Shown in pieces: positions 1,038 through 61,795 of a stretch of DNA of 64,000 nt (position 1 is its first letter; every line of letters begins with the position of its first letter). The notes beneath the pieces were generated by a model. The model was not told where the DNA came from. It searched no databases and saw nothing but the letters and a program-made list of their open reading frames with translations. The DNA is from an uncultured Verrucomicrobiota bacterium (GTDB lineage: Bacteria > Verrucomicrobiota > Kiritimatiellia > Kiritimatiellales > Tichowtungiaceae): positions 1,906-65,905 of the forward strand of contig CAYYYX010000003.1 of assembly GCA_964476065.1 (NCBI GenBank), read 5' to 3'. The position numbers and the translations under genes are program-made.

Positions 1038-1077
1038 GCGGGTTTTCCAAACCTTGGAAAACCCGCGTTTTTGTTTT
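1038..1077 (+). terminator. Rho-independent terminator after pstS, built on a TTCCAA-N3-TTGGAA core
   Basis: Perfect 29-nt palindrome gcgggttttccaaaccttggaaaacccgc followed by gtttttgtttt. Confidence 0.7.
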
Positions 1078-1184
1078 CCCTTCCGCTCCCGTTGAAATCC
1101 CGTATGCTGATTGGCCGATGTTTCAGGGAGCGGAAAAGATGGAACCTTCTACAACACCGTCAAAACATCCGACTGAAGGGGTGA

Positions 1185-1610
1185 GATTACACCTCGCCGG
1201 GCGGCTATTTCGTAACCATCAACACGCACGAAAGCCAGGCGCTGTTCGGCGCGATCATCAACGGGGAAATGGTGCTTAATGAGGCGGGGAAGATTGCCGA
1301 AGAGAAATGGCGTAAAAGTGCGGCCATCCGCAATTATATCCGATTTAATCCGCAGAATTATGATGTCGTGATGAATGTTGGAGAACCGCAGTTCCTTGGA
1401 GACCGCGCGCTCCTCGAACGGCCGAAAGTCGGGTTCCTTTCTTCGAGGGGTGCGGATGCCCCGCATGGCCGCTTGCCGGTCAAATTCGGCAAGGCCATTA
1501 TCAGTGGATTTCTTTCTCCCATGGAGCGCGCGGTTTTCAACGCCGGGCTGGAGTATAAAAAGCCGCTTGCTCATCATCTCGCCCTTTGCCGTTCATTCGC
1601 GGTTAAATAA
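1185..1610 (+). pseudogene. Decayed mosaic ORF: N-terminal fragment of a Y1 (IS200/RAYT, COG1943-like) transposase without the HUH motif, followed by a possible DprA/Smf-like fragment
   Basis: In-frame translation GGYFVTINTHESQALFGAIINGEMVLNEAGKIAEEKWRKSAAIR...YDVVMN resembles the N-terminus of RAYT-type proteins but stops where MPNH-H-G (HUH) should be. There is no ATG at the frame start. The tail LLERPKVGFLSSRG...AIISGFLSPMERAV looks DprA-like, recognised from memory only. Confidence 0.4.
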
Positions 1611-1617
1611 CTCCTTC

Positions 1618-2988: not shown

Positions 2989-4335
2989 ATGCGTCTTGCG
3001 ACCCGTAAACTTTTAGATCGATCTTTCTCCGGCATGGGGCTGGTTGCCATTGCTGTGATGGCGATGGCGCTGGTTGTCATTTTGGCTCCGATCATCGGGA
3101 AGGGCGCTGGCGCTTTCGTTTTCCGGGGAACGATTGAACATCGCAAAGTGATGTCCAATGTTTGGAACCGTGGCAACCCCGAACAGATGGCGGAGGCCAT
3201 CGCGCAAACGGATGCCGCACGTCAGCCGATTTACGACCTGATTTCTACGTTCGAGGCCGACCTGAAAGAACTGCCGCGTGCGGATCGCAAACCCTATAAG
3301 CAACCGCTTCGCGATTTGAAAAAATCGATTGCCAGCTTGTTGGGGCCTGAGCCCGGCGCACGAACTCCCGTGTTGATGCGCCAGCAGTACGGCGCAACCC
3401 GGATGGACCGCGCAGACATCAAGCTTCAAGAAATCCTGATGACCGAAGAGTGGGACTATTCGAATCCCGATGTGATGGGTGTGTTGGTGAAAACCCCGCG
3501 ACTCGAACAGTTCGCTGGAACCTCGCTGGAGCCGCTTTTCCAAACCTTGGAAGAAAACGTCGGTGCCCTGCTTCAGCCGCAGTTGACTTTCTATTGGCAG
3601 TTCCTCATCGACACCTCCAAAGACTCACACATTTTCGGCGGGATCGGCCCCGAGGTTCTCGGAACTCTTTATTTGACTCTCGGCGCGATGCTCTTCGCCA
3701 TTCCGATGGGGGTGATCGCCGCGATTTACCTGTGCGAATACGCCAAAGAAGGGCGCGGCATTAGTTTTATCCGCACCTGCATCAGCACGCTCGCCGGCGT
3801 TCCGAGTATCGTATTCGGGCTCTTTGGATTGGCCTTCTTTTTGAACACCATTCACATTTCAGATTCGAAAAGCGTTCTCGCCGGATCGCTCACGCTCGCG
3901 CTACTGGTTTTGCCGACCATCATCCGATCCTCGGAAGAAGCGATCCTCGCTGTGCCGCGCGCCTATAAAGAAGCAGCCATGAGCCTCGGCGCGGGCAAGT
4001 GGCACACGGTGCTCACCGTCATTCTGCCTGCCGCGCTGCCGGGGATTTTGACCGGAGTGGTTATCAGCATGGGACGCGCCGCCGGTGAAACCGCGCCGAT
4101 CATTTTCACTGCCGCCGTCAGCGTAGGCCGTCCGCTTCTTCCGTTGCAAACGCTCTCGCAACCGACGCCCGCGCTACCGTGGAATATTTATAATCTCTGT
4201 ACCGAGCACGAAGCCGTTGACGAAATCCGCCACGTCCAATTTGGAATGGTCTTTACGTTGATCGCTATTGTTCTGTTGCTCAATACCGTCGCCATCATCA
4301 TGCGCGCTCGCATCTCCAAAAAACTGAGAGGATAG
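2989..4335 (+). CDS. pstA: Phosphate ABC transporter permease PstA (long form)
   Basis: 448 aa. EAA loop SEEAILAVPRAYKEAAMSLGAGKWHT. Large extracytoplasmic insert after TM1. Positioned between pstC and pstB. Confidence 0.9.
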   Translation: MRLATRKLLDRSFSGMGLVAIAVMAMALVVILAPIIGKGAGAFVFRGTIEHRKVMSNVWNRGNPEQMAEAIAQTDAARQPIYDLISTFEADLKELPRADRKPYKQPLRDLKKSIASLLGPEPGARTPVLMRQQYGATRMDRADIKLQEILMTEEWDYSNPDVMGVLVKTPRLEQFAGTSLEPLFQTLEENVGALLQPQLTFYWQFLIDTSKDSHIFGGIGPEVLGTLYLTLGAMLFAIPMGVIAAIYLCEYAKEGRGISFIRTCISTLAGVPSIVFGLFGLAFFLNTIHISDSKSVLAGSLTLALLVLPTIIRSSEEAILAVPRAYKEAAMSLGAGKWHTVLTVILPAALPGILTGVVISMGRAAGETAPIIFTAAVSVGRPLLPLQTLSQPTPALPWNIYNLCTEHEAVDEIRHVQFGMVFTLIAIVLLLNTVAIIMRARISKKLRG

Positions 4336-6890: not shown

Positions 6891-8656
6891 TGAAAGCCAA
6901 ACGAATTTTTTGGAAGCTGTATCCGAGTTATCTCCTCGTCACATTGCTTTCGCTGGCGGCCGTCTTTTTTCTCTCTTCATCGGCGCTGCGCCAGTTCTAT
7001 GAAGGGCAAACTTCGGACAGTCTCAAGGTGCAAGCCTCTTTTGCGGGCGAGCAGATGCGGGGGCAATTCGGGTCAGACCAGCTTGCTCAGACGACAGATC
7101 GTTTGGGGAGTCAGACCTCGGCGCGGATCACGGTCATTCTTCCCGACGGGTTGGTCGTGGGCGAGTCTGAAAAAGCCCCGTCCAAAATGGGTAATCATCG
7201 CGTCCGTCCTGAAATACAGGAAGCGTTGAGCGGACGGATCGGAGAATCGGTCCGTTTCAGTAATACACTGAAGAAAAATATGATGTATGTCGCGGTGCCC
7301 GTTTTACGTGACGACGAGGTGATTGGGGTTGTTCGCGCGGCTCTTCCGCTCTCGGAAATGGAACAACTGTTCGACCCAATGCAACAGCGTATCATCTGGG
7401 GCGGTCTCGCCATTCTTTTGTTGGCGGCAATTTTTAGCTTGGTGATCTCTCGTCGCATTTCTCAGCCTCTCGAAAAAATTAAGCAGGGGGCGGAGCGCTT
7501 TGCCGACGGGGATTTTTCTCATCGGCTTCATCCCGGTGGGTCCGCCGAAATTGGTTCTCTGGCGGAAAGCATGAACAGCATGGCTGCTCAGTTTGAAGAA
7601 CGTTTGAGCTCGGTGGTTCAGGAGCGCAATCAGCGCGAAGCCATCCTTTCCAGTATGGTCGAGGGCGTGTTGGCGGTCGATACCGAGGGCCACATCATCA
7701 GCCTCAACAAAGCTGCCGCGCATTTTTTCCAAGTGTTGGACCCTGCCACAGCCACCGGACGCAGTATCGAAGAGGTCTTCCGGAACGTGAAGCTACAGAA
7801 GTTTATCAGTGAAGTTCTCGAAGCGCAGGAAACCTGCGAGTGCGAATTTCAGGTGCAGAACAACGAACGGTTTGATCTGCAGGCGCGCGGCACCAACTTG
7901 CTCGGCGTGCAGGGCGAGCGGGTCGGCGCCGTCGTGGTCTTTAACGATGTCTCCCGCCTGCGGCGTCTCGAAAATCTGCGGCGCGACTTCGTGGCCAATG
8001 TCTCCCACGAATTGAAGACTCCGATTACCTCGATTAAAGGATTTGTCGAAACGCTGCTCGATGGCGCGATGAACGATCCTGCCGAAGGCGAGCGCTTCCT
8101 CACGATCGTTGCGAAACACGCCGACCGCCTCAACGCCATCATTGACGATTTGCTCACACTCTCTCGCCTCGAACAGGGAAGCATTGAAGAGCTAGATGTG
8201 TATCCGGCAAATTTGGCTGGGTTGATTCGTTCGTCGGTTGAGGTCTGTTCGCGCCGCGCCACGAAGAAAGGGATCAGCGTTCGGGTGGAGTGCCCGGAAG
8301 AACTCAGCGTCCGAGTCAGTCAGCCTCTCATTGAGCAGGCACTCATCAACCTCATCGGCAATGCGGTTAAATACAGCGCCGACGATAAAACCGTTAGGAT
8401 TTATGTGCGGGCTGAAGCGGGCGAAACCATTCTCTCTGTAGAGGATCAGGGCTACGGGGTCGAATCCGAGCATCTTGACCGGCTTTTCGAGCGGTTCTAC
8501 CGCGTCGACAAAGGCCGTAGCCGCCAAGAGGGTGGAACCGGGCTGGGTCTCGCCATCGTCAAGCATATCGCGCAGGTCCACGGCGGGCGTGTCGAAGTTC
8601 AAAGCACCTTCGGGCAAGGCTCCGTCTTTGCCATCTTTCTTCCCGCCACATCCTAG
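6887..8656 (+). CDS. phoR: Sensor histidine kinase, PhoR-like (TM-HAMP-PAS-HisKA-HATPase)
   Basis: 589 aa. H-box LRRDFVANVSHELKTPITSIKGF. ATPase motifs GNAVKYS and GGTGLGLAIVKH. Translationally coupled to phoB. Confidence 0.85.
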   Translation: MMKAKRIFWKLYPSYLLVTLLSLAAVFFLSSSALRQFYEGQTSDSLKVQASFAGEQMRGQFGSDQLAQTTDRLGSQTSARITVILPDGLVVGESEKAPSKMGNHRVRPEIQEALSGRIGESVRFSNTLKKNMMYVAVPVLRDDEVIGVVRAALPLSEMEQLFDPMQQRIIWGGLAILLLAAIFSLVISRRISQPLEKIKQGAERFADGDFSHRLHPGGSAEIGSLAESMNSMAAQFEERLSSVVQERNQREAILSSMVEGVLAVDTEGHIISLNKAAAHFFQVLDPATATGRSIEEVFRNVKLQKFISEVLEAQETCECEFQVQNNERFDLQARGTNLLGVQGERVGAVVVFNDVSRLRRLENLRRDFVANVSHELKTPITSIKGFVETLLDGAMNDPAEGERFLTIVAKHADRLNAIIDDLLTLSRLEQGSIEELDVYPANLAGLIRSSVEVCSRRATKKGISVRVECPEELSVRVSQPLIEQALINLIGNAVKYSADDKTVRIYVRAEAGETILSVEDQGYGVESEHLDRLFERFYRVDKGRSRQEGGTGLGLAIVKHIAQVHGGRVEVQSTFGQGSVFAIFLPATS

Positions 8657-8657
8657 T

Positions 8658-8751
8658 TTCCAAGGCTGGGAAAAACTGACGTTTATTTTTCCAATGGTTG
8701 GAGAAAATCGGTAGAACCTTTCCAATCATTGGAAAGCAACTGCGTTGCGGA
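8658..8751. repeat. Cluster of three TTCCAA-N3-TTGGAA motif copies (8658 and 8689 each with 1 mismatch, 8719 perfect) plus abutting palindrome GCAACTGCGTTGC
   Basis: tttccaaggctgggaaaa / ttttccaatggttggagaaaa / tttccaatcattggaaagcaactgcgttgc, directly after the phoR stop. Confidence 0.8.
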
Positions 8752-8774: not shown

Positions 8775-9608
8775 ATGAAGACAATTGCTATCATGGGACT
8801 GGGGCTGATGGGCTCCTCGCTGGGGCTCGCGCTGAAGAAGCGCGGAGTCGATGTGGAGGTCCGCGCCTATGCACGCCGCGCCGAAACTCGCGATGCGGCG
8901 CTGGAGGTCGGTGCGGCAGACGCCGTTTTCAGCGATCCGGTTGAAGCGGTCCAGGGTGCGGACATGGTTGTTTTCTGTGTTCCAATTTTAAAGATCCCCG
9001 AGCTGGCGAAGGCCTGTTTGTCTGGATTGAGCCCCGAAGCGGTTCTGACCGATGTTGGAAGCACCAAGGCTGAACTCGCTATCTTAATGGACGGCCTTCT
9101 CGCTGGAACCGATGTCGTATTTGTCGGCTCGCATCCGATCTGTGGTTCCGAGCAACAGGGGATTGAAGCGGGGAAATCCAATTTGTATAAGGGCGCGGTG
9201 ACGGTGGTGACTCCGCAGGCGGATGCGGTTGAAGGAACGGTCTCTGAAGTTTCCAACCTTTGGAAAAGTGTCGGGGCCAGCGTCCGCGTGATGAGCCCAG
9301 AAACACACGACGAAATTTTGGCCACGACCAGTCATTTGCCGCACATGGTCGCGGCGACATTGGTACGTTCTGTGAACGATGGTCTTTTTTGCGGAACCGG
9401 TTTTCTCGACACCACTCGTGTCGCGGCGGGATCGCCGGAGGTCTGGAGCGATATTGTCCAAACCAACGCGCCCGCGCTGAAGTCCGCGCTGAAAGTTTTT
9501 CAGGAACATCTCGATGAACTCAATTCACTGATCGATGCGGCTGACGGCGAAAAGCTGTCTGCATGGTTTGCCACTGCGCGCGATAAACGCAAGGAGCTTC
9601 TGGGTTAG
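8775..9608 (+). CDS. tyrA: Prephenate (or arogenate) dehydrogenase
   Basis: 277 aa. Rossmann N-terminus MKTIAIMGLGLMGSSLG, plus GSHPICG and TSHLPH motifs. Upstream of aroA. Confidence 0.8.
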   Translation: MKTIAIMGLGLMGSSLGLALKKRGVDVEVRAYARRAETRDAALEVGAADAVFSDPVEAVQGADMVVFCVPILKIPELAKACLSGLSPEAVLTDVGSTKAELAILMDGLLAGTDVVFVGSHPICGSEQQGIEAGKSNLYKGAVTVVTPQADAVEGTVSEVSNLWKSVGASVRVMSPETHDEILATTSHLPHMVAATLVRSVNDGLFCGTGFLDTTRVAAGSPEVWSDIVQTNAPALKSALKVFQEHLDELNSLIDAADGEKLSAWFATARDKRKELLG

Positions 9609-9652: not shown

Positions 9653-10960
9653 ATGCATTTAAAAACGATCCATCCTGTTACAGCTTTTGGCGGAGAACTC
9701 CGCGTTCCCGGCGATAAAAGCGTTTCGCAGCGTATCGCCATGCTGGCGGCGCTGGCGAAAGGCACCTCTGTGATTCAAGGCTTCCTGACCGGTGAAGATG
9801 CGATGAGTACGCTCCATGCGGTTTGCGCGCTCGGGGCGTCGTCGAAATTCGAAGGCGATGTGCTGAAGATCACCGGCACCGGCGGAAAATTTAAAGAACC
9901 GGCTAATCCGCTCGACATGGGAAATTCCGGAACCGGGACGCGCTTGCTGGCGGGGTTGCTCGCTGGGCAGAAGATGACGGTGACGATGACGGGCGATGAA
10001 TCGCTTTCGCGCCGTCCGATGGGTCGGATTAAAGATCCGCTCGAAGAAATGGGCGCGGCCATTGAGCTGACAGGCGAGGAGGGAACACTCCCCATGACGA
10101 TTTCTGGAACGCCGTTGCACGGAATCCGCTACGAGCTTCCCATGGCTTCGGCGCAGGTGAAGTCGGCCGTTCTTCTGGCCGGCCTGTTTGCGGAAGGCAA
10201 GACGACGGTGGTTGAGCCGCGCCCGACCCGCGACCATACCGAAAAACTTTTCCAAGCCTTGGAAATTCCGCTGACGGTGGACGGGCTGGAGATCAGCCTG
10301 CAGGGCTTCGGCCCCAACGGCCCGGAGATTGAGGCCTGTAATTTGACCGTGCCGGGCGATTTTTCGTCGGCCGCGTTCTGGATTGCCGCCACCGCTGCGC
10401 GCCCCGGCGCAGAGCTGATTGTTCGCGATGTTGGCCTGAATCCGCGGCGCACTGCATTACTCGATGTGCTGAGCCGGATGGGTGCGCTGATTGAAACGGA
10501 GATGAGCGAGGAAGAGGGCGACCCGATCGGGACTGTCTTTGTCCGCGGGACTCCGCTTCGCGGAACGGAAATTTCCGGTGATGAAATTCCAAATTTAATT
10601 GATGAGCTTCCGATGATCGCGGCGCTCGGCGCACTGGCCGAGGGTGAAACGGTGATTCGCGATGCGGCAGAACTGCGCGTGAAGGAGTCGGACCGTATTG
10701 CGGTGACAGCGGCTCATCTGCGCGCGCTTGGCGTGGAGGTGGAAGAACATCCCGATGGAATGACGGTGCGCGGCCCGGCGGAGCTGACCGCGCCGGACGA
10801 AGCGCTGGCATCGCACGGGGATCACCGAATTGCGATGTCAATGGCGATCCTGGCAACGTTTGCCAATGCGCCGGTACGGATCGACAATGTGGATTGCGTG
10901 GCAACCTCGTATCCCGAGTTTTGGAGCCATTTAGAACAGTTGGGTGGCGAGGTTTCATAA
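9653..10960 (+). CDS. aroA: 3-phosphoshikimate 1-carboxyvinyltransferase (EPSP synthase)
   Basis: LRVPGDKSVSQR, LDMGNSGTGTRLL, ELRVKESDRI motifs. Start chosen at ATG 9653; the ORF track allows GTG 9626. Confidence 0.9.
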   Translation: MHLKTIHPVTAFGGELRVPGDKSVSQRIAMLAALAKGTSVIQGFLTGEDAMSTLHAVCALGASSKFEGDVLKITGTGGKFKEPANPLDMGNSGTGTRLLAGLLAGQKMTVTMTGDESLSRRPMGRIKDPLEEMGAAIELTGEEGTLPMTISGTPLHGIRYELPMASAQVKSAVLLAGLFAEGKTTVVEPRPTRDHTEKLFQALEIPLTVDGLEISLQGFGPNGPEIEACNLTVPGDFSSAAFWIAATAARPGAELIVRDVGLNPRRTALLDVLSRMGALIETEMSEEEGDPIGTVFVRGTPLRGTEISGDEIPNLIDELPMIAALGALAEGETVIRDAAELRVKESDRIAVTAAHLRALGVEVEEHPDGMTVRGPAELTAPDEALASHGDHRIAMSMAILATFANAPVRIDNVDCVATSYPEFWSHLEQLGGEVS

Positions 10961-11021: not shown

Positions 11022-11036
11022 GTTTTGGAGGCAGTT

Positions 11037-18740: not shown

Positions 18741-18770
18741 CTTCAGAGGTTCCAATGGTTGGAACTTTTG

Positions 18771-18822
18771 GGCTCCGTTTTTCCAAACCTTGGAAAACGG
18801 AGCCTTTTTTTTCCAGGTATTG
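18771..18822 (+). terminator. Rho-independent terminator after aspS, built on a TTCCAA-N3-TTGGAA core
   Basis: ggctccgtttttccaaaccttggaaaacggagcc followed by tttttttt. Confidence 0.75.
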
Positions 18823-18835
18823 GAAAAACGCACCG

Positions 18836-22937: not shown

Positions 22938-23115
22938 ATCTTTCCTAACGGTTCCTAAGATATTTCAGATGTTGAATGGGACAATTTCGCGTAGACGGAT
23001 CGGTCTTTTACCTGTTTTTCCAAACCGTGGAACCAGCTGCGCTGGATTTCAGGGCTTCGCCTTGCTCGTTGGACATCTTTTCCAAAGGCTGGAAAAGTAG
23101 CAAGCCGTAATGCGG

Positions 23116-24882: not shown

Positions 24883-24973
24883 CTTCTTTCCAACCCCTAG
24901 AAGAAGTATACCTCATTTGCCGCCTGCGATGGGATAAATTTCCAAGCATTGGAAAACCCAATAGTCCATTCTT

Positions 24974-44516: not shown

Positions 44517-44742
44517 GTTGCAATAGAAAAAGAAACCAAATCAGTCGGGTTTTTCCAAGCATTGGAAAAGAGGTCGGTCTTGCGCCGCGAAGCGCTGAAA
44601 AGCAACACTGTTGCTTCCAAACCTTAGAAAAATCTCATTCTGTTTTTCTAATGGTTGGACTCGAAGCGTAGCAGAGAGGGGCTTTTGTATTTCCAAAAGC
44701 AATGACTGGAAGGAATGGCAACATGAGGCTATATTCCGCGGC

Positions 44743-50113: not shown

Positions 50114-50319
50114 TTCCAAACCTCGGAAACCATACCTTGCAAGGTATGGTTTATATCGACTTCAATTTCCAAGGGTTGGAAAAAAATCGCAAGCTGCAAC
50201 GCAGTTGCTTCCAAACATCGGAAAAATTTGGTTCTATTCTTCCAATGTTTGGAAAAAGTCAGCACGCCGCAACGCAGTTCAAAGACCCCGAGCCTTCGGG
50301 GTGCTTCCAATGATTGGAA
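50114..50319. repeat. Array of five TTCCAA-N3-TTGGAA motif copies (50114, 50167, 50209, 50240, 50305) interleaved with GCAACGCAGTT(GC) units, upstream of rnc
   Basis: Read directly. Copies at 50167, 50240 and 50305 are perfect; those at 50114 and 50209 have tCggaa. Confidence 0.85.
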
Positions 50320-50320: not shown

Positions 50321-51025
50321 ATGGATATGAAAAAGTTCCCCTTCGATAAAACTCAGGGCAGGCGAACCTTGGAAAAACAGATTGGCTACCGCTTCAAAAA
50401 GAAAGCGTTGCTGGAGGCTGCATTGACCCATCCGTCGTATCGCTACGAAAACTCGGCGGAGAGTGGGGATAATCAGCGGCTCGAGTTTCTGGGCGACTCG
50501 GTATTGGGTCTATTGGCGGCAGATCGTTTGACAGCAAAATATGCCGAGGCCGATGAGGGCGAGTTGACGCAGCGGAAAAGTTCGATTGCATCGGGCCGGG
50601 CGCTGGCGACGGCGGCCCGCGGGCTGGGGTTGGGCGAGCATCTGCTTTTGGGACGCGGCGAGGCGGCCAATGGCGGAGCCGATCGTGAATCGAATTTGGA
50701 AGATCTTCTCGAAGCCTTGCTCGGAGCCATTTGGTTGGATGGAGGGTTGAAGGCCGCCCGCCGCTTTTTTGAAACACATATTTTCCAACCCTTGGAAACC
50801 GGGGAGACTGCATCGCTCAATCCCAAAGGAACGCTTCAGGAATTTGCCCAGAAAAACGGGTTTCCTATTCCAGAGTATCAGGTGGTCGAGGAGAGCGGTC
50901 CGAATCATGCGCGTCAGTTCACTGTGGAGGTGACGGTGAATCACTTCGCCTATCGCGGGGAGGGCACTGGCCGTCGGATCGCCGAAAAAAATGCCGCCGC
51001 AAAGGCGCTGCGGAGTCTGCTCTAA
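50321..51025 (+). CDS. rnc: Ribonuclease III
   Basis: LEKQIGYRFKKKALLEAALTHPSY...NQRLEFLGDSVL... plus a C-terminal dsRBD (PKGTLQEFAQKNG...AEKNAAAKAL). Start at 50321 or 50327. Confidence 0.9.
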   Translation: MDMKKFPFDKTQGRRTLEKQIGYRFKKKALLEAALTHPSYRYENSAESGDNQRLEFLGDSVLGLLAADRLTAKYAEADEGELTQRKSSIASGRALATAARGLGLGEHLLLGRGEAANGGADRESNLEDLLEALLGAIWLDGGLKAARRFFETHIFQPLETGETASLNPKGTLQEFAQKNGFPIPEYQVVEESGPNHARQFTVEVTVNHFAYRGEGTGRRIAEKNAAAKALRSLL

Positions 51026-54112: not shown

Positions 54113-54643
54113 CCGGCATTGCCGGTCCCAGACAATTGATAAAGCCTCTTGTTTAAAAAGGCACTTTTCACCCGATCGAATCTTCCATGAAAATTTAGGC
54201 AGAATGAGTTGGTGGCAGAATGATTACTGACTCATCTGTAGCGGGTTATAAAAAATATTTCCGCTGCGCTTCTTTTGTGAATACCAAAAGCACTTTCGGT
54301 ATACCTCAGGTCTGCCTATAAATCATTCTGCTCATATAAACACCTGAACTGTTTTCTTTGTCTTCGAGGAATGTAGATAGTTTTTCAACAAGCTGTAACC
54401 GGCAATGCCGGTCGATCTTCTTTTCCAACCCTTGGAAAAATCTGCGTTGATCTGCGTAATCTGCGGATTAAAAAGTTCCACCCGAGACGAGCCAACCGGA
54501 GGAAGACAGGCAGTGCGAATGCAAAGCAATGACACGAAGTGGAATGGCAACTCGAGAGAGGCTGGCGCTATTGCGACGGCAACGGAACGAAGTGGAGATG
54601 CAATGCTTGGAAAATTATTTGGGCGAAGGCGGATGCCCCTTCT

Positions 54644-55845: not shown

Positions 55846-55874
55846 ATTTTATAACGTTTCGCGTCACTTTGAGC
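55778..55874. repeat. Direct repeat copy A (5' end and leader of the SDR gene), about 97 bp, near-identical to 56514-56611
   Basis: tcggcaatcgcgcgtccaattctaacagcgccaccagttacgagagctctttttccattcaaattcatattttataacgtttcgcgtcactttgagc. Confidence 0.85.
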
Positions 55875-56513: not shown

Positions 56514-56611
56514 TCGGCAATCGCGCGTCCAATTCTAACAGCGCCACCAGTTACGAGAGCTCTTTTTCCATTTAAATTCATATTTTTATAACGTCTCGCG
56601 TCACTCTGAGC
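56514..56611. repeat. Direct repeat copy B: orphan duplicate of the SDR gene 5' end and leader (encodes MNLNGKRALVTGGAVRIGRAIA... then decays)
   Basis: About 97/98 nt with roughly 4 differences from copy A. Weaker homology extends to about 56494 and 56645. Confidence 0.85.
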
Positions 56612-57250: not shown

Positions 57251-58735
57251 TCAATTATCCATCCCCTTAATCCACTCGATGAGAGTACGTGCTCCAAAGA
57301 GGGTGACGCCGGGAGCCATCCAGGCTTTGGGCGTTTCTTCCCAAGCCGTTCCGGCAATGTCGATGTGCGCCCATGGGATATCATCCGGGACAAATTCGCT
57401 CAGGAACGCGCCGGCAGTGATGGTTCCTGCGGTACTGGATTTGCTGATGTTCTGTAGGTCGGCAAAGGTGCCCTTCATGTCGTCTTTATGTTCCTGCCAG
57501 AGCGGAAGTTCCCATAGACGTTCGCCGCCATGTTCCGCGGCCTGAATCAGTTTCTGATTCAGTTTGTGGTTATTTCCGACTACGGCGGCGGCGGTGTGGC
57601 CGAGCGCCATGATGACGGCACCGGTGAGGGTGGCGAGGTCGACGATCGCGGCGGGTTTATGCGTCAGGGCCAGATCGAGCGCATCGCAGAGCGCGAGGCG
57701 GCCTTCGGCATCGGTGTTGAGAATTTCGATGGTTTTTCCGGAGCGCGATTTGACAATGTCGCCGGGGCGGGTTGCGCCGCCGCTTGGCATATTTTCGGCG
57801 ACGGTGAGCATGCCGATGACCGATGTTTTCGGTTTGAGCAGGGCGACCATTTTCATGGCGGCGAGTACGGCCATGCCCCCGCATTTATCAAATTGCATCC
57901 ATTCCATGCCTTTGCCGGGTTTGAGCGAGATGCCGCCGGAATCGAAGGTGATGGTTTTTCCGACGAGGACAATCGGTTTGCTTTTTGGGTCGGTCCCTTT
58001 GTATTTGAGGGTAATGATTTTTGCATCGGTGTCGCTACCCGCTGCGACGGAGAGCAGGGCGTTACAATTTTGCTTTTTCAACTCAGTTTTGTTGAGAATG
58101 GAGCAAGTAAGACCCGAGTCTTTGGCCATTTTTGTGGCCCATGTGGCAATCTTTTGCGGTGGGGCGAGGTTGCCGGGCAGGTTGGCAAGGTCGGCCGTGG
58201 AGAGAAGGGCTTCGCTTTCAATTTTCGCTTCGGCGAGTGCGCGGCGGCAGGCGGCGGCATTTTTGCAGGGGCCAGCAAAAACCAGAGAGGGTTCGGCCGT
58301 CCGTTTCTTCTTTTTCGTTTTGAAGGTGTCGAAGTTGTAGCTTCCCCAGACCGCGCCACGGGCGACGGTGTGGATGAAGGCCGTTTCGGAAACATCCTTG
58401 AGGGCTCCGGTGCTTTCGGTGGCAAAGTGGGTGATGCCTGCTTTTTGTCCGGCGCGCACGGCGGCCGCGGCGGCGCGTTCAAGTGTTTCCATTTGAAAGG
58501 CGGTTCCTTTGCCGAGGCCGACCAAGATGAGTTGAGCGGCTTTGGTTTTTCCGAAGCTTGGAAAAACCGCGGTCTGCGCGAAGCCGCCTTCAAAATTACT
58601 TTTTTTAATCTGCTCTGTGAGCAATTGGGGCAGAGCCCCTTTTCCGGTAAGAAGCGGTTTTTTGTTCTGAACAAAAACGATCCAGCCATCTTTGGCTTGT
58701 GTGTCGAGCGGGCGGGGGGTGAGTGTCAGTTTCAT
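57251..58735 (-). CDS. pepA: Leucyl aminopeptidase (M17)
   Basis: 494 aa. VGKTITFDSGGISLKP, NTDAEGRLALCDAL signature. Confidence 0.9.
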   Translation of the reverse strand: MKLTLTPRPLDTQAKDGWIVFVQNKKPLLTGKGALPQLLTEQIKKSNFEGGFAQTAVFPSFGKTKAAQLILVGLGKGTAFQMETLERAAAAAVRAGQKAGITHFATESTGALKDVSETAFIHTVARGAVWGSYNFDTFKTKKKKRTAEPSLVFAGPCKNAAACRRALAEAKIESEALLSTADLANLPGNLAPPQKIATWATKMAKDSGLTCSILNKTELKKQNCNALLSVAAGSDTDAKIITLKYKGTDPKSKPIVLVGKTITFDSGGISLKPGKGMEWMQFDKCGGMAVLAAMKMVALLKPKTSVIGMLTVAENMPSGGATRPGDIVKSRSGKTIEILNTDAEGRLALCDALDLALTHKPAAIVDLATLTGAVIMALGHTAAAVVGNNHKLNQKLIQAAEHGGERLWELPLWQEHKDDMKGTFADLQNISKSSTAGTITAGAFLSEFVPDDIPWAHIDIAGTAWEETPKAWMAPGVTLFGARTLIEWIKGMDN

Positions 58736-59064
58736 TATCGGAGTTCCTCGGGGAGTTTGGCTTTGTCAGCGGCTTCGGCAGGCCAGTTCGGCAGGTCAAA
58801 GCCACGTTTGACGATGGCGTATTCAATATTCTTCAGGTAGAGCTCGCGCCCGTTAAAAATAATGGTCAGCGTTTTGTTTTCGAGGTCGGGCCGGAATTCT
58901 TGAACTCCTTTCAGGCCTCGCAGAGTGTTCGCGAGAATCTGAGCGCCTTGCGGACTGCGGAGTTGATCCACCTCGAAGGTTACGGTGCGGATGTCATTGC
59001 GGAAGCAGCCTGCGAGCAGGAGCACCCCGATGAGAAGAAGACTATTTTTTTGAAGTGTTTTCAT
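58735..59064 (-). CDS. Small lipoprotein with HMA-like fold but no CxxC
   Basis: MKTLQKNSLLLIGVLLLAGC lipobox, then an HMA-like beta-alpha-beta-beta-alpha-beta pattern (VTFEVDQLRSPQGAQILANTLRGLKGVQEF...). Start moved to ATG 59064. Confidence 0.5.
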   Translation of the reverse strand: MKTLQKNSLLLIGVLLLAGCFRNDIRTVTFEVDQLRSPQGAQILANTLRGLKGVQEFRPDLENKTLTIIFNGRELYLKNIEYAIVKRGFDLPNWPAEAADKAKLPEELR

Positions 59065-59476
59065 GGGTTGAAAATATAGAGGGTTTGAATGTCGAATGTC
59101 GAATAAGGAACAGAAGAATATCGAAGGAAGCGCTGCCTGTTCTAAAAGGGATTTCGAACAGCGATGCGAGTTTCGGAATGCATGATAAATTTCCAAGCAT
59201 TGGAAAAAAGACACGTCAATCTTCCAACGGTTGGGGAGGCAGGAATATTTTCATCCGCAGATTTCGCAGATGTACACAGAGTAGGAGTCCACGCGGTAGA
59301 AATGAAACAAGTTCCTGGCATTTTGCCATAAGGATCATCCTGCCTAATCCTCTTCATCTGCGACTCGAAACGAAGTGGAGAGGGGCTGGCGCGCAGCGAC
59401 GGCAACAAAGTGGCAAATCGAGCGCAGCGGGTGGATGGATTTGACCCTGAGTAGGATTGAGGTTTGTGCGCAGACT

Positions 59477-61795
59477 CTACAATCCGAGGTCGTTCATGAT
59501 CGCGTGGGTATAAACCCGTTTCCAGCGCGGGGGCTTGCTGAATTCTGCCTCAGCTAGTCTTAAAAATTCGTAGGCCAAATCAACGAGGTCTTCCTGACCA
59601 TTTTTGCTGAGCTGTCCTTCGTAGATATCGATAAAGTCGTTGTAGCGCCGGACGGCTTTTTCATATTTTCCGTTCATCTGCAGTGCCAATGCATATCCAA
59701 ACAGGGCGGAGGGGCTTCCCGTTTCCTGCCTTAAAGCCAAATGATATAGCTCTTCGGCCTGGAGAGGATTGCCCGTGATCATCAGCAAGTTGGCCCGTAG
59801 AAAACGGGAAAGAGGGGGGTCTGGAATGCTGCGGCAGATTTCCATGGCTTCGGTAAGCTGACCCTGCTGGTAGCTTGCCGCCGCTTCGGCGATGCGGGCG
59901 TCGGTGTCTTGAATATTCTTCGGGTTGTAGAGCAGATGCACAATCAGGATGGCGAGGCCGAAGACGATTATGATGCGCAGGTCGGTGCGCGTGAATCGCA
60001 ATCGGTGAACCCCGCGGAGGAGCTGTTTGATCACGGGGGCATTTCTTCCGGCGTCGCGCTGGAATTCATCCTGAGTGGTGAGAATGAGCGCCGCCGTCAT
60101 CGGCCCCAGTTCAAAGGCTGGAGTGGGACGTTGTGAACGGTGGGATCCATCCTTCGCCAAAGGCTTCGGAGGACAAGTTGTGGGATGTTGGATGTGGGAT
60201 GGGTCGGAGGGCTCTCCGATCTCCGACCCCTGATCTCTGACCTCTGATCTCTGATCTCTGTTTCCTGCCATTCGGGCGGCCTCGATGCGTTCGCGTTCGA
60301 ACCAGGCAGCGAAGCCTTCGCGTGCGCGTCGTACAAAGAGCATGAGCAGGGCGCGGCTGGTATCGGCACAGCGAAGGGCTTCAAATGCCATGAACTGATG
60401 AATGGCGGGAAGGTGGGCCGTGTCGTCGATTTGTTCCTGTTTCCATGAGGCTGGCTCTGCGTGGCCGGGAAACCCGTGGGTCTCTTCGAAGTTTTCCAGA
60501 AGCGGAGTCTGATACTCGCGATCTAAATTCTCTACGAGAAGTGGCAGAAAGGAGCCAAAGGAGGGTTCGTCGATAAAGTGCCCGTTTTTCCAAACATTGG
60601 AAAATGACTTTTTCTCCGGGTTCCAGAAGATGGTTGTGAGGGTGTGCGTGAGCTGATTGCGCTGTTCGCTGAGCGATTCGATCGCCGTTTCGGAATCGTG
60701 GTTTTTTTCGCAGAGGCGCAGAAGGGCTTCGATTTCTCCGAGGAGCATGACGGTGAGTTCCGGCGTCGCTTTGTCGCGTTCGAAGCTCTCAGGAATAAAT
60801 ATTTCTTGGTTGCTTTGCCAGGCAGGAATCCCATCGCGATGCGGGTCGAAACGGCGCAGGGCCCATTGGATATATTTACGAAGAGCAGGAAGGGTCTGTT
60901 TGAGGATCAGCAGATCGGGTTCGCTGCTTTCCCATGCCCGCTCAAAGGTCTGAATGATCAGGGGCCACGGGGCGGCGGTGGATACAACACCCGGCCGGTT
61001 GATCCATGCCGGGAACCCTCCATTGTTCTGCTGAAGTGAGAGCGCGGTACGGGTTAGTTCCATTGCGGTGGATGGGTCAATCAGTGTCCATGCGCGTACC
61101 AACGCGTAGAGCTCGTTGAGCGAAACGGTTTCCTCCTCGAATCCCTCGGCCGCACTCCAGAGTCCGTGAATGGAGGGGGTGCGCTCCCGAAGGCGGTGAG
61201 CCAGTGATTCGGCGGCGAGTGCCACGGGCGGATTGTGGCGCGGGTTAATGCTGAACAGTTCTCCGACCGGAGTCCGGCGTTTCGTTTCCTTTTGCATGAG
61301 GGTTTCAAATTCCTCCTCCAGCGCGTCTTCGGCTTTCCGGAGGGCCTGTTCTTTGGAATATTCGCCGCTGATCAGGGCGAAACGCTCTTCTTTGCAGAGG
61401 AGTAGGGTGGTGTGGTGCTCGGCAACCCTCCATGTGAGACCTGACTCGTCGCGTAGCGCATTGGGTGCGTGGAGGGTGGGCGGTGGAAGATTCAGAAGGC
61501 GGCCGACCCAAACGCCGGATTCGAGCAGGAGGGCGTCCAATCGTATTTTTTCAGGGCTTTTGCGTGTGCAGACCGAAAAGCCGTTGCTGAAAAGTCGTGC
61601 CGAACAGGATTCGGACGTGGGAAGAAGTTGAAGGGTCCAGGTGGCTCCGGGGAGGGTGAGCACGCCGGGAGTCGCTCCCGTGATGAATCGAAGCGAATCG
61701 TTGGGGCCGGCCGAAAAGGCCCAGCCCTGTTTCCATGGAACGGCGGGGTAATCTGTAAAAAGATTTTGCATGAGTCGGGGTGCATCTTGTCGCAT
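59477..61795 (-). CDS. 772-aa composite protein: six-hairpin glycosidase-like domain (GH63/GDE-like), low-complexity linker, TM segment, TPR repeats
   Basis: LSLQQNNGGFPAWINRPG and DGIPAWQSNQE are typical (alpha/alpha)6 glycosidase-like motifs. Linker NRDQRSEVRDQGSEIGEPSDPSHIQHPTT. TM IIIVFGLAILIVHLLY. TPR-like C-terminus. Confidence 0.5.
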   Translation of the reverse strand: MRQDAPRLMQNLFTDYPAVPWKQGWAFSAGPNDSLRFITGATPGVLTLPGATWTLQLLPTSESCSARLFSNGFSVCTRKSPEKIRLDALLLESGVWVGRLLNLPPPTLHAPNALRDESGLTWRVAEHHTTLLLCKEERFALISGEYSKEQALRKAEDALEEEFETLMQKETKRRTPVGELFSINPRHNPPVALAAESLAHRLRERTPSIHGLWSAAEGFEEETVSLNELYALVRAWTLIDPSTAMELTRTALSLQQNNGGFPAWINRPGVVSTAAPWPLIIQTFERAWESSEPDLLILKQTLPALRKYIQWALRRFDPHRDGIPAWQSNQEIFIPESFERDKATPELTVMLLGEIEALLRLCEKNHDSETAIESLSEQRNQLTHTLTTIFWNPEKKSFSNVWKNGHFIDEPSFGSFLPLLVENLDREYQTPLLENFEETHGFPGHAEPASWKQEQIDDTAHLPAIHQFMAFEALRCADTSRALLMLFVRRAREGFAAWFERERIEAARMAGNRDQRSEVRDQGSEIGEPSDPSHIQHPTTCPPKPLAKDGSHRSQRPTPAFELGPMTAALILTTQDEFQRDAGRNAPVIKQLLRGVHRLRFTRTDLRIIIVFGLAILIVHLLYNPKNIQDTDARIAEAAASYQQGQLTEAMEICRSIPDPPLSRFLRANLLMITGNPLQAEELYHLALRQETGSPSALFGYALALQMNGKYEKAVRRYNDFIDIYEGQLSKNGQEDLVDLAYEFLRLAEAEFSKPPRWKRVYTHAIMNDLGL

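What the first reader, a model, noticed from the sequence alone, without database searches (positions are those of the whole stretch)
1045..60602. Hyper-abundant 15-bp palindrome TTCCAA-N3-TTGGAA: 29 perfect copies in 64 kb, inside genes in all frames and between genes
By eye I find perfect copies starting at 1045, 3538, 8719, 9251, 10250, 18750, 18781, 19589, 19901, 19974, 21692, 21723, 24950, 27458, 31170, 31212, 32275, 32443, 40389, 42013, 43224, 44553, 50167, 50240, 50305, 50783, 54423, 59191 and 60588.

There are 17 one-mismatch copies: 3153, 8658, 8689, 18821, 20221, 23018, 23080, 26241, 28473, 38078, 39879, 43505, 44615, 50114, 50209, 58549 and 62401.

Twelve fixed bases predict about 64000/4^12 = 0.004 copies under equal base use, so the excess is several thousand-fold.

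The N3 spacer is free (acc, ggt, tgt, aca, ggg, ccc, gca, tca, ...). The flanks are often T-run/A-run (TTTTCCAA...TTGGAAAA).

Eighteen perfect copies lie in unrelated CDSs and are read in all three frames:
- FQxLE in pstA, aroA, the PfkB kinase, the GT-like gene, cusB, cusC and rnc
- SNxWK in tyrA, cusB and the 772-aa gene
- FPxxG in the DUF456 gene and the rSAM fusion

Selection therefore acts on DNA or RNA, not protein. Intergenic copies form the stems of the terminators after pstS and aspS, and they cluster (8658-8751, 18750-18835, 44553-44660, 50114-50319).

The density of about 1 per 2 kb, the in-gene tolerance and the terminator use resemble DNA uptake sequences (Neisseria DUS, Pasteurellaceae USS). 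Unlike those, this motif is a spaced palindrome, which looks more like a dimeric DNA-binding-protein site (nucleoid or segregation factor) or a very compact mobile palindrome. Every copy also contains CCA-N5-TGG. I know of no described element with this sequence.
Basis: seen in the sequence. Interest (0 to 1): 0.85.

Follow-up and report, generated by a model that had tools for sequence, protein, structure and literature searches.

The report
Hyper-abundant phased palindrome in Kiritimatiellia
A 15-19 bp DNA palindrome (TTTTCCAA-N-C/G-N-TTGGAAAA) occurs about once per 1-2 kb in this uncultured Kiritimatiellales bacterium and its relatives. It is written into genes by point mutation and spaced in whole turns of the DNA helix, so it is probably the docking site of an unidentified DNA-binding protein and not an ordinary repeat or mobile element.

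Summary
There are 29 perfect and 19 one-mismatch copies of TTCCAA-N3-TTGGAA in 64 kb, against 0.01 and 0.36 expected. A few coordinates were off by 1-10 bp and two one-mismatch copies were missed.

The spacer is not free: its centre base is C or G in 29/29 copies here and 418/425 elsewhere. Spacing is strictly N3, and lone half-sites are not enriched.

Flanks beyond about 2 bp are unrelated, and ortholog alignments show no indels. Copies therefore arise by substitution, not insertion. With the proteins held fixed, codon resampling gives 0.37 perfect copies in CDS against 20 observed.

In one orthologous gene, sites keep their position across 4-8 genomes. They sit at poorly conserved residues yet hold their codons.

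Neighbouring copies are helically phased (22, 31, 42, 52, 63, 73 ... bp; best period 10.35 bp). GC-rich Kiritimatiellia carry almost only intergenic arrays of 3-7 copies.

Best reading: the binding site of a dimeric, cooperatively assembling dsDNA-binding protein, with geometry like Lrp/FFRP site arrays, that has spread genome-wide in one subclade. The protein is not identified.

A DNA-uptake signal remains the main rival. HIP1-like methylation or repair drive and REP/NTS-like hairpin elements are weaker rivals.

The parts
1045..1059 (.). Perfect copy (spacer ACC), intergenic. Apex of the terminator hairpin 1038-1066 plus T-run, after the pstS-like gene (196-1014).
   Evidence: (-26.4 kcal/mol, z -4.9)
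3538..3552 (.). Perfect copy in the pstA-like permease CDS (2989-4335, +), frame 0, FQTLE.
8658..8734 (.). Intergenic array of three copies at 8658 (1 mismatch), 8689 (1 mismatch) and 8720 (perfect, spacer TCA). Spacing 31 and 31 bp. Lies between the histidine kinase gene and tyrA.
9251..9265 (.). Perfect copy in tyrA (8775-9608, +), frame 2, SNLWK. The same site is perfect in relative L004, with a different spacer.
10250..10264 (.). Perfect copy in aroA (9626-10960, +), frame 0, FQALE. The L004 ortholog has TTCCAGGCATTGGGA at the same codons, with no indel.
18750..18825 (.). Intergenic array after aspS: copies at 18750 (perfect), 18781 (perfect, apex of the terminator hairpin 18770-18805 plus T8) and 18811 (1 mismatch). 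Spacing 31 and 30 bp.
19589..19603 (.). Perfect copy in the radical-SAM/MnmC-like fusion gene (19476-21173, -), frame 1, FPTFG. The position is shared with L207, L204 and L209.
19901..19915 (.). Perfect copy in the same gene, frame 1, FPTLG. The position is shared with L204 and L209 (perfect) and L208 (1 mismatch). Genomes without the motif have unrelated residues of the same length at this position.
19974..19988 (.). Perfect copy in the same gene, frame 0, FQTLE. All 8 compared genomes have a copy here (6 perfect, 2 with one mismatch). Spacers are ACA, CCC, GGG and TGT, including reverse-complement flips.
21692..21737 (.). Two perfect copies 31 bp apart (21692, 21723) inside the PfkB kinase CDS (21170-22075, -), read in frames 0 and 2. 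Both are also perfect in L207. L004 and L005 have different residues of the same length.
24940..24954 (.). Perfect copy, intergenic, about 20 bp downstream of the asd stop codon (asd 24974-26110, -).
27448..27462 (.). Perfect copy in the glycosyltransferase-like CDS (26581-27693, -), frame 0, FQTLE.
31170..31257 (.). Copies at 31170 and 31212 (both perfect, 42 bp apart) and 31243 (2 mismatches, 31 bp further on), all inside CDS 30966-32024 (-).
32275..32289 (.). Perfect copy in the DUF456 gene (32084-32632, -), frame 1, FPILG.
32443..32457 (.). Perfect copy in the DUF456 gene, frame 1, VPTLG.
40389..40403 (.). Perfect copy in the CusB/HlyD-like gene (39732-42077, -), frame 0, FQTLE.
42013..42027 (.). 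Perfect copy at the extreme 5' end of the CusB-like ORF. The start codon is uncertain, so the copy may be intergenic.
43224..43238 (.). Perfect copy in the outer-membrane efflux (OEP) gene (42543-43787, -), frame 0, FQTLE.
44553..44660 (.). Cluster upstream of nadA: copies at 44553 (perfect), 44615 (1 mismatch) and 44646 (2 mismatches). Spacing 62 and 31 bp. The NadA Pfam match starts at residue 50 of the long ORF, so the cluster is probably non-coding.
50114..50319 (.). Intergenic cluster of five copies between the xerC-like integrase gene and rnc: 50114 (1 mismatch), 50167 (perfect), 50209 (1 mismatch), 50240 (perfect) and 50305 (perfect). Spacing 53, 42, 31 and 65 bp. The last copy ends 3 bp before the rnc ATG (50322).
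50783..50797 (.). Perfect copy in rnc (RNase III), frame 0, FQPLE.
54423..54437 (.). Perfect copy at the 5' end of a hypothetical ORF (54405-54836) with no Pfam match. Coding status uncertain.
59191..59236 (.). Perfect copy at 59191 plus a 2-mismatch copy at 59222 (31 bp apart), at the 5' end of or upstream of a hypothetical ORF (58735-59214, -).
60588..60602 (.). Perfect copy in the 772-aa GH-like/TPR gene (59477-61795, -), frame 2, SNVWK.
3153..3167 (.). One-mismatch copy (GTCCAATGTTTGGAA) in the pstA-like CDS.
7727..7741 (.). One-mismatch copy in the histidine kinase CDS.
20221..20235 (.). One-mismatch copy in the radical-SAM fusion gene. The same site is perfect in L004, L204, L207 and L209. 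L005 uses AGT for the Ser codon where the motif-bearing genomes use TCC.
20567..20581 (.). One-mismatch copy in the radical-SAM fusion gene.
23018..23094 (.). Two one-mismatch copies (23018, 23080) 62 bp apart, in a probably non-coding stretch between 22937 and 23110.
26241..26255 (.). One-mismatch copy. Coding status unclear.
28473..28487 (.). One-mismatch copy in the LOG/lysine-decarboxylase-like CDS (27886-28626).
38078..38092 (.). One-mismatch copy in the AcrB-like CDS (36118-39735).
39879..39893 (.). One-mismatch copy in the CusB-like CDS.
43505..43519 (.). One-mismatch copy in the OEP CDS.
58549..58563 (.). One-mismatch copy in the leucyl aminopeptidase (M17) CDS.
62401..62415 (.). One-mismatch copy, intergenic.

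Best explanation
The motif, in full tTTTCCAA(t)-C/G-(a)TTGGAAAa, is most likely the recognition site of an abundant dimeric double-stranded-DNA-binding protein whose dimers assemble side by side on one face of the helix. The protein is unidentified.

Shown:
- The unit is the whole palindrome with a fixed 3-bp centre.
- Neighbouring copies sit 2, 3, 4, 5 ... helical turns apart.
- GC-rich Kiritimatiellia carry it almost only as intergenic arrays of 3-7 copies.
- In the subclade of this window, single copies have spread to about 0.3-1 per kb, including into ORFs.
- New copies arise by point substitution at poorly conserved residues, and their codons are then held.

Inferred:
- Array binding by the protein is the ancestral, local role (architectural or regulatory).
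- The genome-wide spread reflects selection, or a protein-dependent drive, for many sites per chromosome. That would make it a nucleoid-structuring or self-recognition signal, not a set of sites with individual functions.

The geometry (6-3-6 palindrome, arrays spaced at two or three turns) is that of Lrp/FFRP site clusters that wrap DNA around an oligomer. Membership in that family is not established.
For: - Hyper-abundance: 29 perfect copies against 0.01 expected, 48 at one mismatch or fewer against 0.36.
- Fixed spacing: 29 pairs at N3 and none at N0-N32; lone half-sites number about 55, against about 50 expected.
- Centre base is C or G in 29/29 and 418/425 copies. The commonest spacer in the array-rich metagenome loci is TCA/TGA, which suggests TTCCAAT-S-ATTGGAA.
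- Phasing: in-window gaps are 31 (x8), 42, 52/53, 62 and 73 bp, with the same ladder in relatives. In 120 metagenome contigs, leaving out the 31-bp gaps used to find them, 45 gaps of 35-150 bp give a best period of 10.35 bp with R = 0.84. The null maximum was 0.48 in 2000 simulations.
- Array-only lineages: GC >= 0.60 contigs hold 56 arrays with 170 copies but only 9 isolated sites in 211 kb. Contigs with GC < 0.55 have 0.35 isolated sites per kb. One array-bearing GC-rich contig is Kiritimatiellia, by a 100% EF-G match.
- DNA-level constraint: 0.37 perfect copies expected against 20 observed with proteins held fixed. In the arms, codon identity is 74% against 52% elsewhere, while amino-acid identity is 63% against 76%.
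- Origin by substitution: no indels at motif sites in orthologs.
- No net orientation relative to transcription: 13 C to 11 G at the centre in intergenic sites, and the bias in coding sites depends on reading frame.
- Published Lrp/FFRP sites have the form abcde-N3-e'd'c'b'a', for example TTGCAA[AAT]TTGCAA. They cluster with centre-to-centre spacing of two or three helical turns (PMC2715240, PMC2995911).
Against: - No binding protein was identified. No gene family recurs next to the arrays, and no Lrp/AsnC gene was seen beside them.
- The centre is C or G, whereas Lrp/FFRP sites have a W-rich centre.
- I know of no transcription factor or nucleoid protein with thousands of near-perfect sites inside ORFs that change protein sequence (from my own knowledge).
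- Placement at tolerant positions, and the absence from aaRS and HU genes, is equally what a neutral molecular drive would give.
- Part of the 10.4-bp ladder could come from sums of 22- and 31-bp array steps with decayed copies in between, and some array linkers look tandemly duplicated.
- All inference is from sequence. Binding, methylation and uptake are untested.
Confidence: 0.45

Rival explanations
1. DNA uptake or transformation signal, as with Neisseria DUS and Pasteurellaceae USS. A surface or periplasmic receptor, here a dimer, prefers motif-bearing DNA. Biased uptake plus recombination then drives the motif to high density wherever proteins tolerate it.
For: - Density of 0.3-1 per kb is like USS/DUS (1471-1892 per roughly 2-Mb genome; PMC2817400).
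- 69% of copies lie in ORFs, against 34.5-65% for USS/DUS.
- Copies are made by substitution, at poorly conserved residues and in less conserved genes, exactly as reported for USS/DUS (PMC2817400).
- Copies form terminator stems.
- The ratio of perfect to one-mismatch copies is high (29:19).
- Patchy, labile phylogenetic distribution.
- SNPs between two strains are clustered, as after recombination.
Against: - The unit is a strict palindrome and lone half-sites are not enriched.
- Helically phased arrays are not expected from uptake bias.
- GC-rich Kiritimatiellia keep arrays but have almost no dispersed copies (0.04 per kb), too few to work as a genome tag.
- A (pro)phage fragment carries 3 copies in capsid and portal genes.
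- No competence genes were examined, and I know of no report of transformation in this phylum.
Confidence: 0.2
2. HIP1-like palindrome tied to DNA methylation or biased repair. An orphan methyltransferase or a site-specific mismatch-repair or nicking enzyme recognises the motif. Repair or conversion toward the consensus, or selection on methylated sites, inflates its number in any DNA that replicates in the cell.
For: - Like HIP1, it is a hyper-abundant palindrome present in ORFs and intergenic DNA, and its sites are conserved between genomes (PMC5861425).
- An invariant central C:G pair would suit a cytosine methyltransferase.
- Copies occur in (pro)phage structural genes.
- Abundance varies sharply between close lineages, as if one gene were gained or lost.
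Against: - Neither a methyltransferase nor a nuclease has been linked to the motif. The only methyltransferase in the window is a generic class I SAM enzyme.
- 12-16 specified bases is long for a Type II specificity.
- Phased arrays are not explained.
- The HIP1 authors themselves argued for selection over biased repair (PMC5861425).
Confidence: 0.15
3. Hairpin-type repeat of the REP/BIME or dRS3/NTS kind. Its single-stranded stem-loop is recognised by a RAYT transposase or an Ssn-like ssDNA nuclease, and it multiplies in arrays.
For: - Regularly spaced intergenic arrays occur in tandem, convergent and divergent gene contexts, as BIMEs do (PMC2817692, abstract).
- dRS3 is also a spaced palindrome, ATTCCC-N8-GGGAAT (PMC11893778).
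- Spacer flips (ACA to TGT, CCC to GGG) at one orthologous site suggest hairpin or template-switch events.
- Some array linkers look tandemly duplicated.
Against: - 69% of copies in the window lie in ORFs and arose without insertion.
- There is no asymmetric flank or GTAG-like tag.
- The bare hairpin is weak, at -5.1 kcal/mol, no better than shuffles.
- No RAYT, IS200/IS605 or GIY-YIG gene was found near arrays.
- Phasing at 10.35 bp points to double-stranded B-DNA.
Confidence: 0.1
4. RNA-level element. The transcribed hairpin UUUUCCAA-NSN-UUGGAAAA serves as a terminator, stabiliser or protein or RNase III target.
For: - Two copies top strong intrinsic terminators.
- A five-copy cluster sits in the rnc leader.
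- A palindrome gives the same hairpin whichever strand is transcribed.
Against: - The hairpin alone is weak, and it is followed by A's, not U's.
- One-mismatch variants show no preference for G·U over A·C on the transcribed strand (read directly).
- Loop orientation has no net bias relative to transcription.
- Helical phasing is a property of duplex DNA.
- Arrays also occur between convergent genes.
Confidence: 0.05

Closest known systems
HIP1 (Highly Iterated Palindrome 1, GCGATCGC) of cyanobacteria
   Same: A short palindrome, hyper-abundant up to about one per gene, found in ORFs in all frames and between genes. Its sites are conserved between genomes beyond what coding explains, its function is unresolved, and a nucleoid-structure role has been proposed (PMC5861425).
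   Different: HIP1 is a contiguous 8-mer, 15-300-fold over-represented. This motif has 12 fixed plus about 5 preferred bases split by a 3-bp centre, and its excess is above 1000-fold. HIP1 periodicity is at the 10-90 kb scale; here it is the 10.4-bp helical repeat, with local arrays. HIP1 contains known methyltransferase sites; none is known here. The phylum also differs.
DNA uptake sequences (Neisseria DUS, Pasteurellaceae USS)
   Same: About one copy per kb. Most or many copies lie in ORFs, arise by point mutation, sit at poorly conserved residues and genes, are used in terminator stems, and are lineage-specific (PMC2817400).
   Different: DUS and USS are asymmetric 9-12-mers found in both orientations. 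This motif is a strict palindrome whose half-sites are not enriched on their own, it forms helically phased arrays, and some lineages keep it only as arrays. Uptake bias has not been shown.
Lrp/AsnC (FFRP) binding-site clusters
   Same: 15-bp 6-3-6 palindromes such as TTGCAA[AAT]TTGCAA for Ss-LrpB. Sites occur in clusters on one face of the helix with centre-to-centre spacing of two or three turns, wrapping DNA around an oligomer (PMC2715240, PMC2995911).
   Different: The centre of FFRP sites is A/T-rich; here it is N-C/G-N. Natural Lrp sites are degenerate and lie in promoter regions, not as thousands of near-perfect copies inside ORFs. No Lrp-family gene has been linked to this motif.
Neisseria dRS3/NTS repeats with the Ssn nuclease, and REP/BIME elements
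   Same: Spaced or imperfect palindromes present in hundreds of copies, clustered in regularly spaced intergenic arrays, and able to form hairpins (PMC11893778, PMC2817692).
   Different: Those elements are extragenic, carry asymmetric conserved flanks, and are tied to a cognate nuclease or transposase gene that they flank. Here most copies in the window are intragenic and made by substitution, flanks are unrelated, and no such gene was found.

Membership tests
DNA uptake sequence (DUS/USS) | Motif-bearing DNA is taken up preferentially by competent cells | not testable with these tools
   Needs uptake or transformation assays. The organism is an uncultured MAG.
DNA uptake sequence (DUS/USS) | Genome-wide density near 1 per kb, including ORFs, with copies at poorly conserved residues and made by substitution | tested here: met
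   0.45 perfect copies per kb in the window and up to 0.96 per kb in L205. Amino-acid identity is 63% at motif codons against 76% elsewhere, with no indels.
DNA uptake sequence (DUS/USS) | Competence machinery and a sequence-specific receptor (such as ComP) are present | not tested
   Only 64 kb plus loci of about 20 kb were available. None of the window genes scanned is a competence gene, which says nothing about the rest of the genome.
HIP1-type highly iterated palindrome | Short palindrome over-represented by one or more orders of magnitude in ORFs and intergenic DNA, conserved between genomes | tested here: met
HIP1-type highly iterated palindrome | The motif contains the target of orphan DNA methyltransferases | not testable with these tools
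   No methylome data. No DNA methyltransferase was found in the window (one search shows only a generic SAM methyltransferase).
Lrp/FFRP site cluster | 13-15-bp palindrome of the form abcde-N3-e'd'c'b'a' | tested here: met
   6-3-6 architecture with strict N3. Form as given in PMC2715240.
Lrp/FFRP site cluster | A/T-rich (WWW) centre facing the dimer | tested here: not met
   The centre base is C or G in 29/29 and 418/425 copies.
Lrp/FFRP site cluster | Clustered sites spaced two or three helical turns apart on one face of the helix | tested here: met
   Gaps of 22 and 30-32 bp dominate. The longer ladder has a period of 10.35 bp with R = 0.84. Feature as described in PMC2995911.
Lrp/FFRP site cluster | A cognate Lrp/AsnC-family protein binds the sites | not tested
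   No Lrp/AsnC gene was found beside arrays. Whole genomes were not searched.
REP/BIME | Extragenic location | tested here: not met
   About 16-20 of 29 perfect copies are inside Pfam-supported CDS.
REP/BIME | Associated RAYT (Y1 transposase), and an imperfect palindrome with a conserved 5' tetranucleotide | tested here: not met
   Flanks are unrelated beyond about 2 bp. No transposase recurs near arrays. Whole genomes were not searched.
dRS3/NTS-Ssn | Repeats flank a GIY-YIG ssDNA nuclease gene and have an oriented conserved flank | tested here: not met
   No oriented flank. No GIY-YIG family appears among array neighbours.
IS / MITE / inserted palindromic element (for example Rickettsia RPE) | Copies arise by insertion, adding sequence relative to empty sites, and share a longer consensus | tested here: not met
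   Ortholog codon alignments have the same length with and without the motif. The consensus ends about 2 bp outside the 15-mer.

The most novel reading that the evidence does not exclude
Kiritimatiellia possess a previously undescribed genome-wide DNA recognition system. An oligomerising dimeric protein reads a 19-bp palindrome, first used in phased intergenic arrays. In one subclade, selection or a protein-dependent drive has written that site into the chromosome every 1-2 kb, re-coding hundreds of proteins (FQxLE, FPxxG and SNxWK peptides). The result is a palindromic 'self' or nucleoid code. It could prove to be the first palindromic uptake or recombination tag outside Proteobacteria, or a new kind of nucleoid-structuring signal.
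Probability: 0.35. Interest if true: 0.85.

Novelty: new variant of a known kind. Interest (0 to 1): 0.7.

Why it matters
Hyper-abundant short motifs (USS/DUS, HIP1, Chi, KOPS) are rare windows onto the forces that shape whole bacterial genomes, and after 30 years HIP1 still has no settled function.

This motif is longer and cleaner than any of them, and it visibly re-codes proteins. It comes with a built-in structural clue in its helical phasing and arrays, and with a natural comparative series: array-only lineages, weak lineages and hyper-abundant lineages. One cultured relative with a complete genome (Tichowtungia aerotolerans) carries a weak version.

That makes the question 'what protein reads it, and is the spread selected or driven?' directly testable. 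It also gives a diagnostic sequence tag for binning Kiritimatiellales DNA and their phages in metagenomes.

Tried and rejected
- Longer IS/MITE consensus: rejected. The logo is flat beyond about 2 bp and orthologs show no indels.
- Half-site as the real unit, as in DUS inverted pairs: rejected. There are no other spacings, and lone half-sites are at expectation.
- Orientation of the asymmetric spacer relative to transcription: frames 0 and 1 of the window looked 14/14 in favour of a centre C on the coding strand. Six genomes showed the bias depends on reading frame and is absent in intergenic sites. It is therefore a coding constraint, not an RNA or transcription signal.
- Cognate gene next to arrays (the logic used to find Ssn): clustering the neighbours of 125 array loci gave one large cluster, but it was an artefact of translating the arrays themselves. 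Pfam scans of 46 large and 60 small neighbouring ORFs showed no recurrent family.
- Rfam and tRNA scans of the window: nothing.
- Literature: no paper in the held library contains the motif string or links Kiritimatiellota to such a repeat.
- Strain-level SNPs (window against L001, 99.5% identity): none in 17 sites, but only about 2 were expected, so uninformative.
Only a few contigs have several copies.
- Gene orientation around arrays in GC-rich contigs: my gene calls were crude, and stop-to-stop ORFs inflate the 'inside ORF' class. Only the presence of convergent contexts is usable.

Full report
**Observation.** The pattern TTCCAANNNTTGGAA occurs 29 times in the 64-kb window. 100 dinucleotide-preserving shuffles gave a mean of 0.01 and a maximum of 1. 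Allowing one mismatch there are 48 matches against 0.36 expected, so 19 copies have one mismatch. Third-order Markov simulations never produced a perfect copy in 30 runs.

**Anatomy.** Aligning the 29 copies gives tTTTCCAA-N-S-N-TTGGAAAa. T is preferred at -1, -2 and -3 (22, 19 and 12 of 29), and A at +1 and +2 (26 and 18 of 29). Nothing is conserved further out, so this is not the core of a longer IS or MITE.
- The spacer is not free. Its centre base is C or G in 29/29 copies here, in 73/75 perfect copies from six related genomes, and in 418/425 perfect copies from metagenome loci.
- In the array-rich metagenome loci the commonest spacer is TCA/TGA, which suggests a fuller consensus TTCCAAT-S-ATTGGAA.
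- Spacing is rigid. TTCCAA-Nk-TTGGAA occurs 29 times at k=3 and never at any other k from 0 to 32.
- After removing full and near-full copies, about 55 lone half-sites remain, against about 50 expected. The unit is therefore the whole palindrome, not a half-site that happens to pair.

**Organism and distribution.** The window is from an uncultured Kiritimatiellales bacterium.
- *Source.* Identical or near-identical contigs occur in ENA and JGI metagenomes. The nearest named relatives are Kiritimatiellales/Pontiellaceae MAGs. The nearest cultured one, by the radical-SAM fusion protein, is Tichowtungia aerotolerans at 72% identity.
- *Negative loci.* None of roughly 70 AspRS loci from other phyla or from Victivallales/Lentisphaeria has a perfect copy. 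Four of them have a single one-mismatch hit.
- *Within Kiritimatiellales the distribution is patchy.* Perfect copies per kb are 0.74-0.96 in L204/L205, 0.72 in L207, 0.45 in the window, 0.42 in L209, 0.34 in L208 and 0.28 in L004.
- *Weak and empty lineages.* Copies are mostly imperfect in T. aerotolerans (L206: 1 perfect plus 6 with one mismatch in 21.7 kb), in Pontiellaceae B12219 (L012), and in L005 and L337. L336 has one perfect copy. Pontiella (L007, L335) has none.

**How copies arise.** In codon alignments of orthologs, genomes with and without the motif have the same length at every site, so copies are made by substitution, including non-synonymous changes.
- Examples are QSFQTLEKQ against KTFTELAGD in PfkB, and DFPTLGKT/NFPKLGKI/LFPMVGKI against FHIPQLTI/CHLPLATL in the radical-SAM fusion.
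- Intermediate states are visible. At one site the series runs from AGT GAA GAC TGG AAA, through TCC GAA GAT TGG AAA and TCC GAG GAT TGG AAA, to TCC AAT GAT TGG AAA.
- In that gene, five sites are shared by 4-8 genomes that are only 72-81% identical in protein.
- At motif-arm codons amino-acid identity is lower than elsewhere (63% against 76%), yet among identical residues the codon is the same more often (74% against 52%).
- Resampling synonymous codons from the window's own usage, with every protein held fixed, gives 0.37 perfect copies in 54.8 kb of CDS against 20 observed. The motif relies on minority codons: TTG 15%, CCA 12%, GGA 24%.
- Non-coding DNA is about 2.7-fold richer: 9 perfect copies in about 9.2 kb.
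- Highly conserved genes (proS, hisS, aspS, HU) have no copy in any of the 4-8 genomes in which each could be compared.
- These features match what Findlay and Redfield reported for uptake sequences (PMC2817400), and what Xu et al. reported for HIP1 conservation (PMC5861425).

**Orientation.** The N-S-N centre makes each copy slightly asymmetric. In the window the centre seemed to follow the coding strand. Across six genomes the bias depends on reading frame (frame 0: 15 C to 9 G; frame 1: 9 to 1; frame 2: 4 to 10) and is absent in intergenic copies (13 to 11). It is a coding constraint, and the element is functionally symmetric. At one orthologous site the spacer is ACA, TGT, CCC or GGG in different genomes. 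These reverse-complement flips are what template switching or hairpin-mediated minute inversion at a palindrome would produce; that mechanism is my inference.

**New finding: helical phasing and arrays.** Neighbouring copies are not randomly spaced.
- In the window the gaps under 130 bp are 30-31 (x9), 42 (x2), 52, 53, 62 (x2), 65 and 73. Related loci give the same ladder.
- In those 120 contigs, ignoring the gaps of about 31 bp used to find them, the gaps fall at 22, 42, 52, 63, 73, 84, 94, 105, 115, 125, 136 and 146 bp.
- For the 45 gaps of 35-150 bp the best period is 10.35 bp with R = 0.84. The null maximum over the same period scan was 0.48 in 2000 simulations. This is the helical repeat of B-DNA, so copies lie on one face of the duplex.
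- Pairs 31 bp apart also occur inside ORFs, where they arose without indels (PfkB). The spacing is therefore not only a by-product of tandem duplication, although some array linkers do look duplicated.
- Contigs with GC >= 0.60 carry 56 arrays with 170 copies but only 9 isolated sites in 211 kb. Contigs with GC < 0.55 carry 0.35 isolated sites per kb.
- One GC-rich contig, with an array about 140 bp upstream of fusA, is Kiritimatiellia by a 100% EF-G match to named MAGs.
- With crude gene calls, arrays lie in tandem, convergent and divergent intergenic contexts. They are not flanked by any recurrent gene family.

**Interpretation.** The evidence points to a sequence-specific dimeric protein that binds duplex DNA and assembles cooperatively along one face. 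The supporting features are:
- a rigid 6-3-6 (or 7-1-7) palindrome whose outer arms are one turn apart;
- no enrichment of lone half-sites;
- no orientation;
- phasing in whole helical turns;
- lineages in which only arrays exist.

The closest described geometry is that of Lrp/FFRP proteins. Their sites have the form abcde-N3-e'd'c'b'a', for example TTGCAA[AAT]TTGCAA. They cluster two or three helical turns apart and wrap DNA around an oligomer (PMC2715240, PMC2995911). One defining feature fails: the centre here is C or G, not A/T-rich. No Lrp gene was linked to the motif either. So this is 'works like', not 'is a member'.

I infer that array binding is the older, local role, and that in the window's subclade the site spread genome-wide. 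Whether that spread is selected for site number (a nucleoid-structuring or self-recognition signal, as proposed for HIP1) or pushed by a protein-dependent drive cannot be decided from sequence.

**Rivals.**
- *DNA-uptake signal.* It explains density, origin by substitution, tolerant placement, terminator use and patchy phylogeny. It does not explain the phasing or the array-only lineages. It cannot be tested here.
- *HIP1-like methylation or repair drive.* It would explain copies in any resident DNA, including a (pro)phage fragment with three copies in major-head and portal genes, and the invariant central C:G. No enzyme is linked to the motif.
- *REP/BIME or dRS3/NTS-Ssn hairpin elements.* They share the regular intergenic arrays (PMC2817692, PMC11893778). 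They fail on intragenic origin by substitution, on the lack of an oriented flank, and on the lack of a cognate gene.
- *RNA-level role.* Only the two copies embedded in longer GC-rich stems followed by T-runs look functional as terminators. The bare hairpin is -5.1 kcal/mol, no better than shuffles.

**Novelty and verdict.** No paper in the held library contains the motif or describes such a repeat in Kiritimatiellota. The kind (a hyper-abundant short genomic signal tolerated in ORFs) is known. This instance is a distinct variant: a long spaced palindrome, extreme excess, helical phasing, arrays, and a graded series of lineages. The finding is real and worth experimental follow-up. The binding protein and the biological role remain unidentified.

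Noticed in passing
window 2830-2891/2926-2973, 4325-4449/4462-4509, 23620-23681/23718-23752, 45649-45694/45732-45779, 53009-53046/53108-53155, 55002-55039, 62552-62613: A second repeat family. Arrays of TGGAATnn with an 8-bp period are each followed 40-100 bp later by the inverse array nnATTCCA. All are intergenic, including inside the pst operon. The pair at 2820-2985 folds as RNA into one long hairpin (-61.6 kcal/mol, z -5.3). None was found in about 230 kb of related loci, so the family looks species-specific. It contains TTGGAAT/ATTCCAA, close to the half-site of the main motif; whether that is meaningful is unknown.
   Followed up: partly
L101 (IMG/VR UViG_3300009860_000298) 275, 2534, 3392; also L202, L187, L332, L333: Viral or proviral contigs carry the motif at host-like density. 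L101 (5.3 kb; major head, portal and head-tail joining proteins by PHROGs) has three perfect copies inside structural genes. Four IMG/VR contigs carry pairs or arrays spaced 31 bp apart. The motif could serve as a host tag for Kiritimatiellia phages.
   Followed up: partly
window 12000-19000 versus L001: A second strain (L001, 99.5% identity over 21 kb) differs by 109 SNPs. 81 of them fall between 12 and 19 kb, against 19 in the first 11 kb. The pattern is typical of an imported recombination tract.
   Followed up: no
window 55778-55850 and 56514-56586: A 73-nt stretch covering the 5' end of the short-chain dehydrogenase gene (55138-55845, -) and the few bases just upstream is duplicated at 99% identity 736 bp away. 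It may be a partial gene or promoter duplication.
   Followed up: no
window 49740-50110: A non-coding stretch of about 380 bp lies between a xerC/xerD-like integrase gene (48819-49733) and the motif cluster upstream of rnc. It contains several GC-rich hairpins (for example ccgccccgaaggttcggggcgg) and a repeated gcaacgcagtt box. It has no Rfam match.
   Followed up: no
window 10944-11727 and 18852-19495: Two toxin-antitoxin pairs, PhdYeFM/PIN_3 and FitA-like RHH/PIN. The second sits immediately downstream of the three-copy motif array, and a sigma-70-like promoter hit (18836-18863) starts directly after the array and overlaps the start of the antitoxin ORF.
   Followed up: no
window 19476-21173 (-): A fusion of a TIGR01212-type radical-SAM domain with an MnmC-like methyltransferase domain (PF05430). 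It is conserved across Kiritimatiellales, with over 100 homologs at 48-81% identity, and is the most motif-dense gene in the window (3 perfect copies plus 2 with one mismatch in 1.7 kb).
   Followed up: partly
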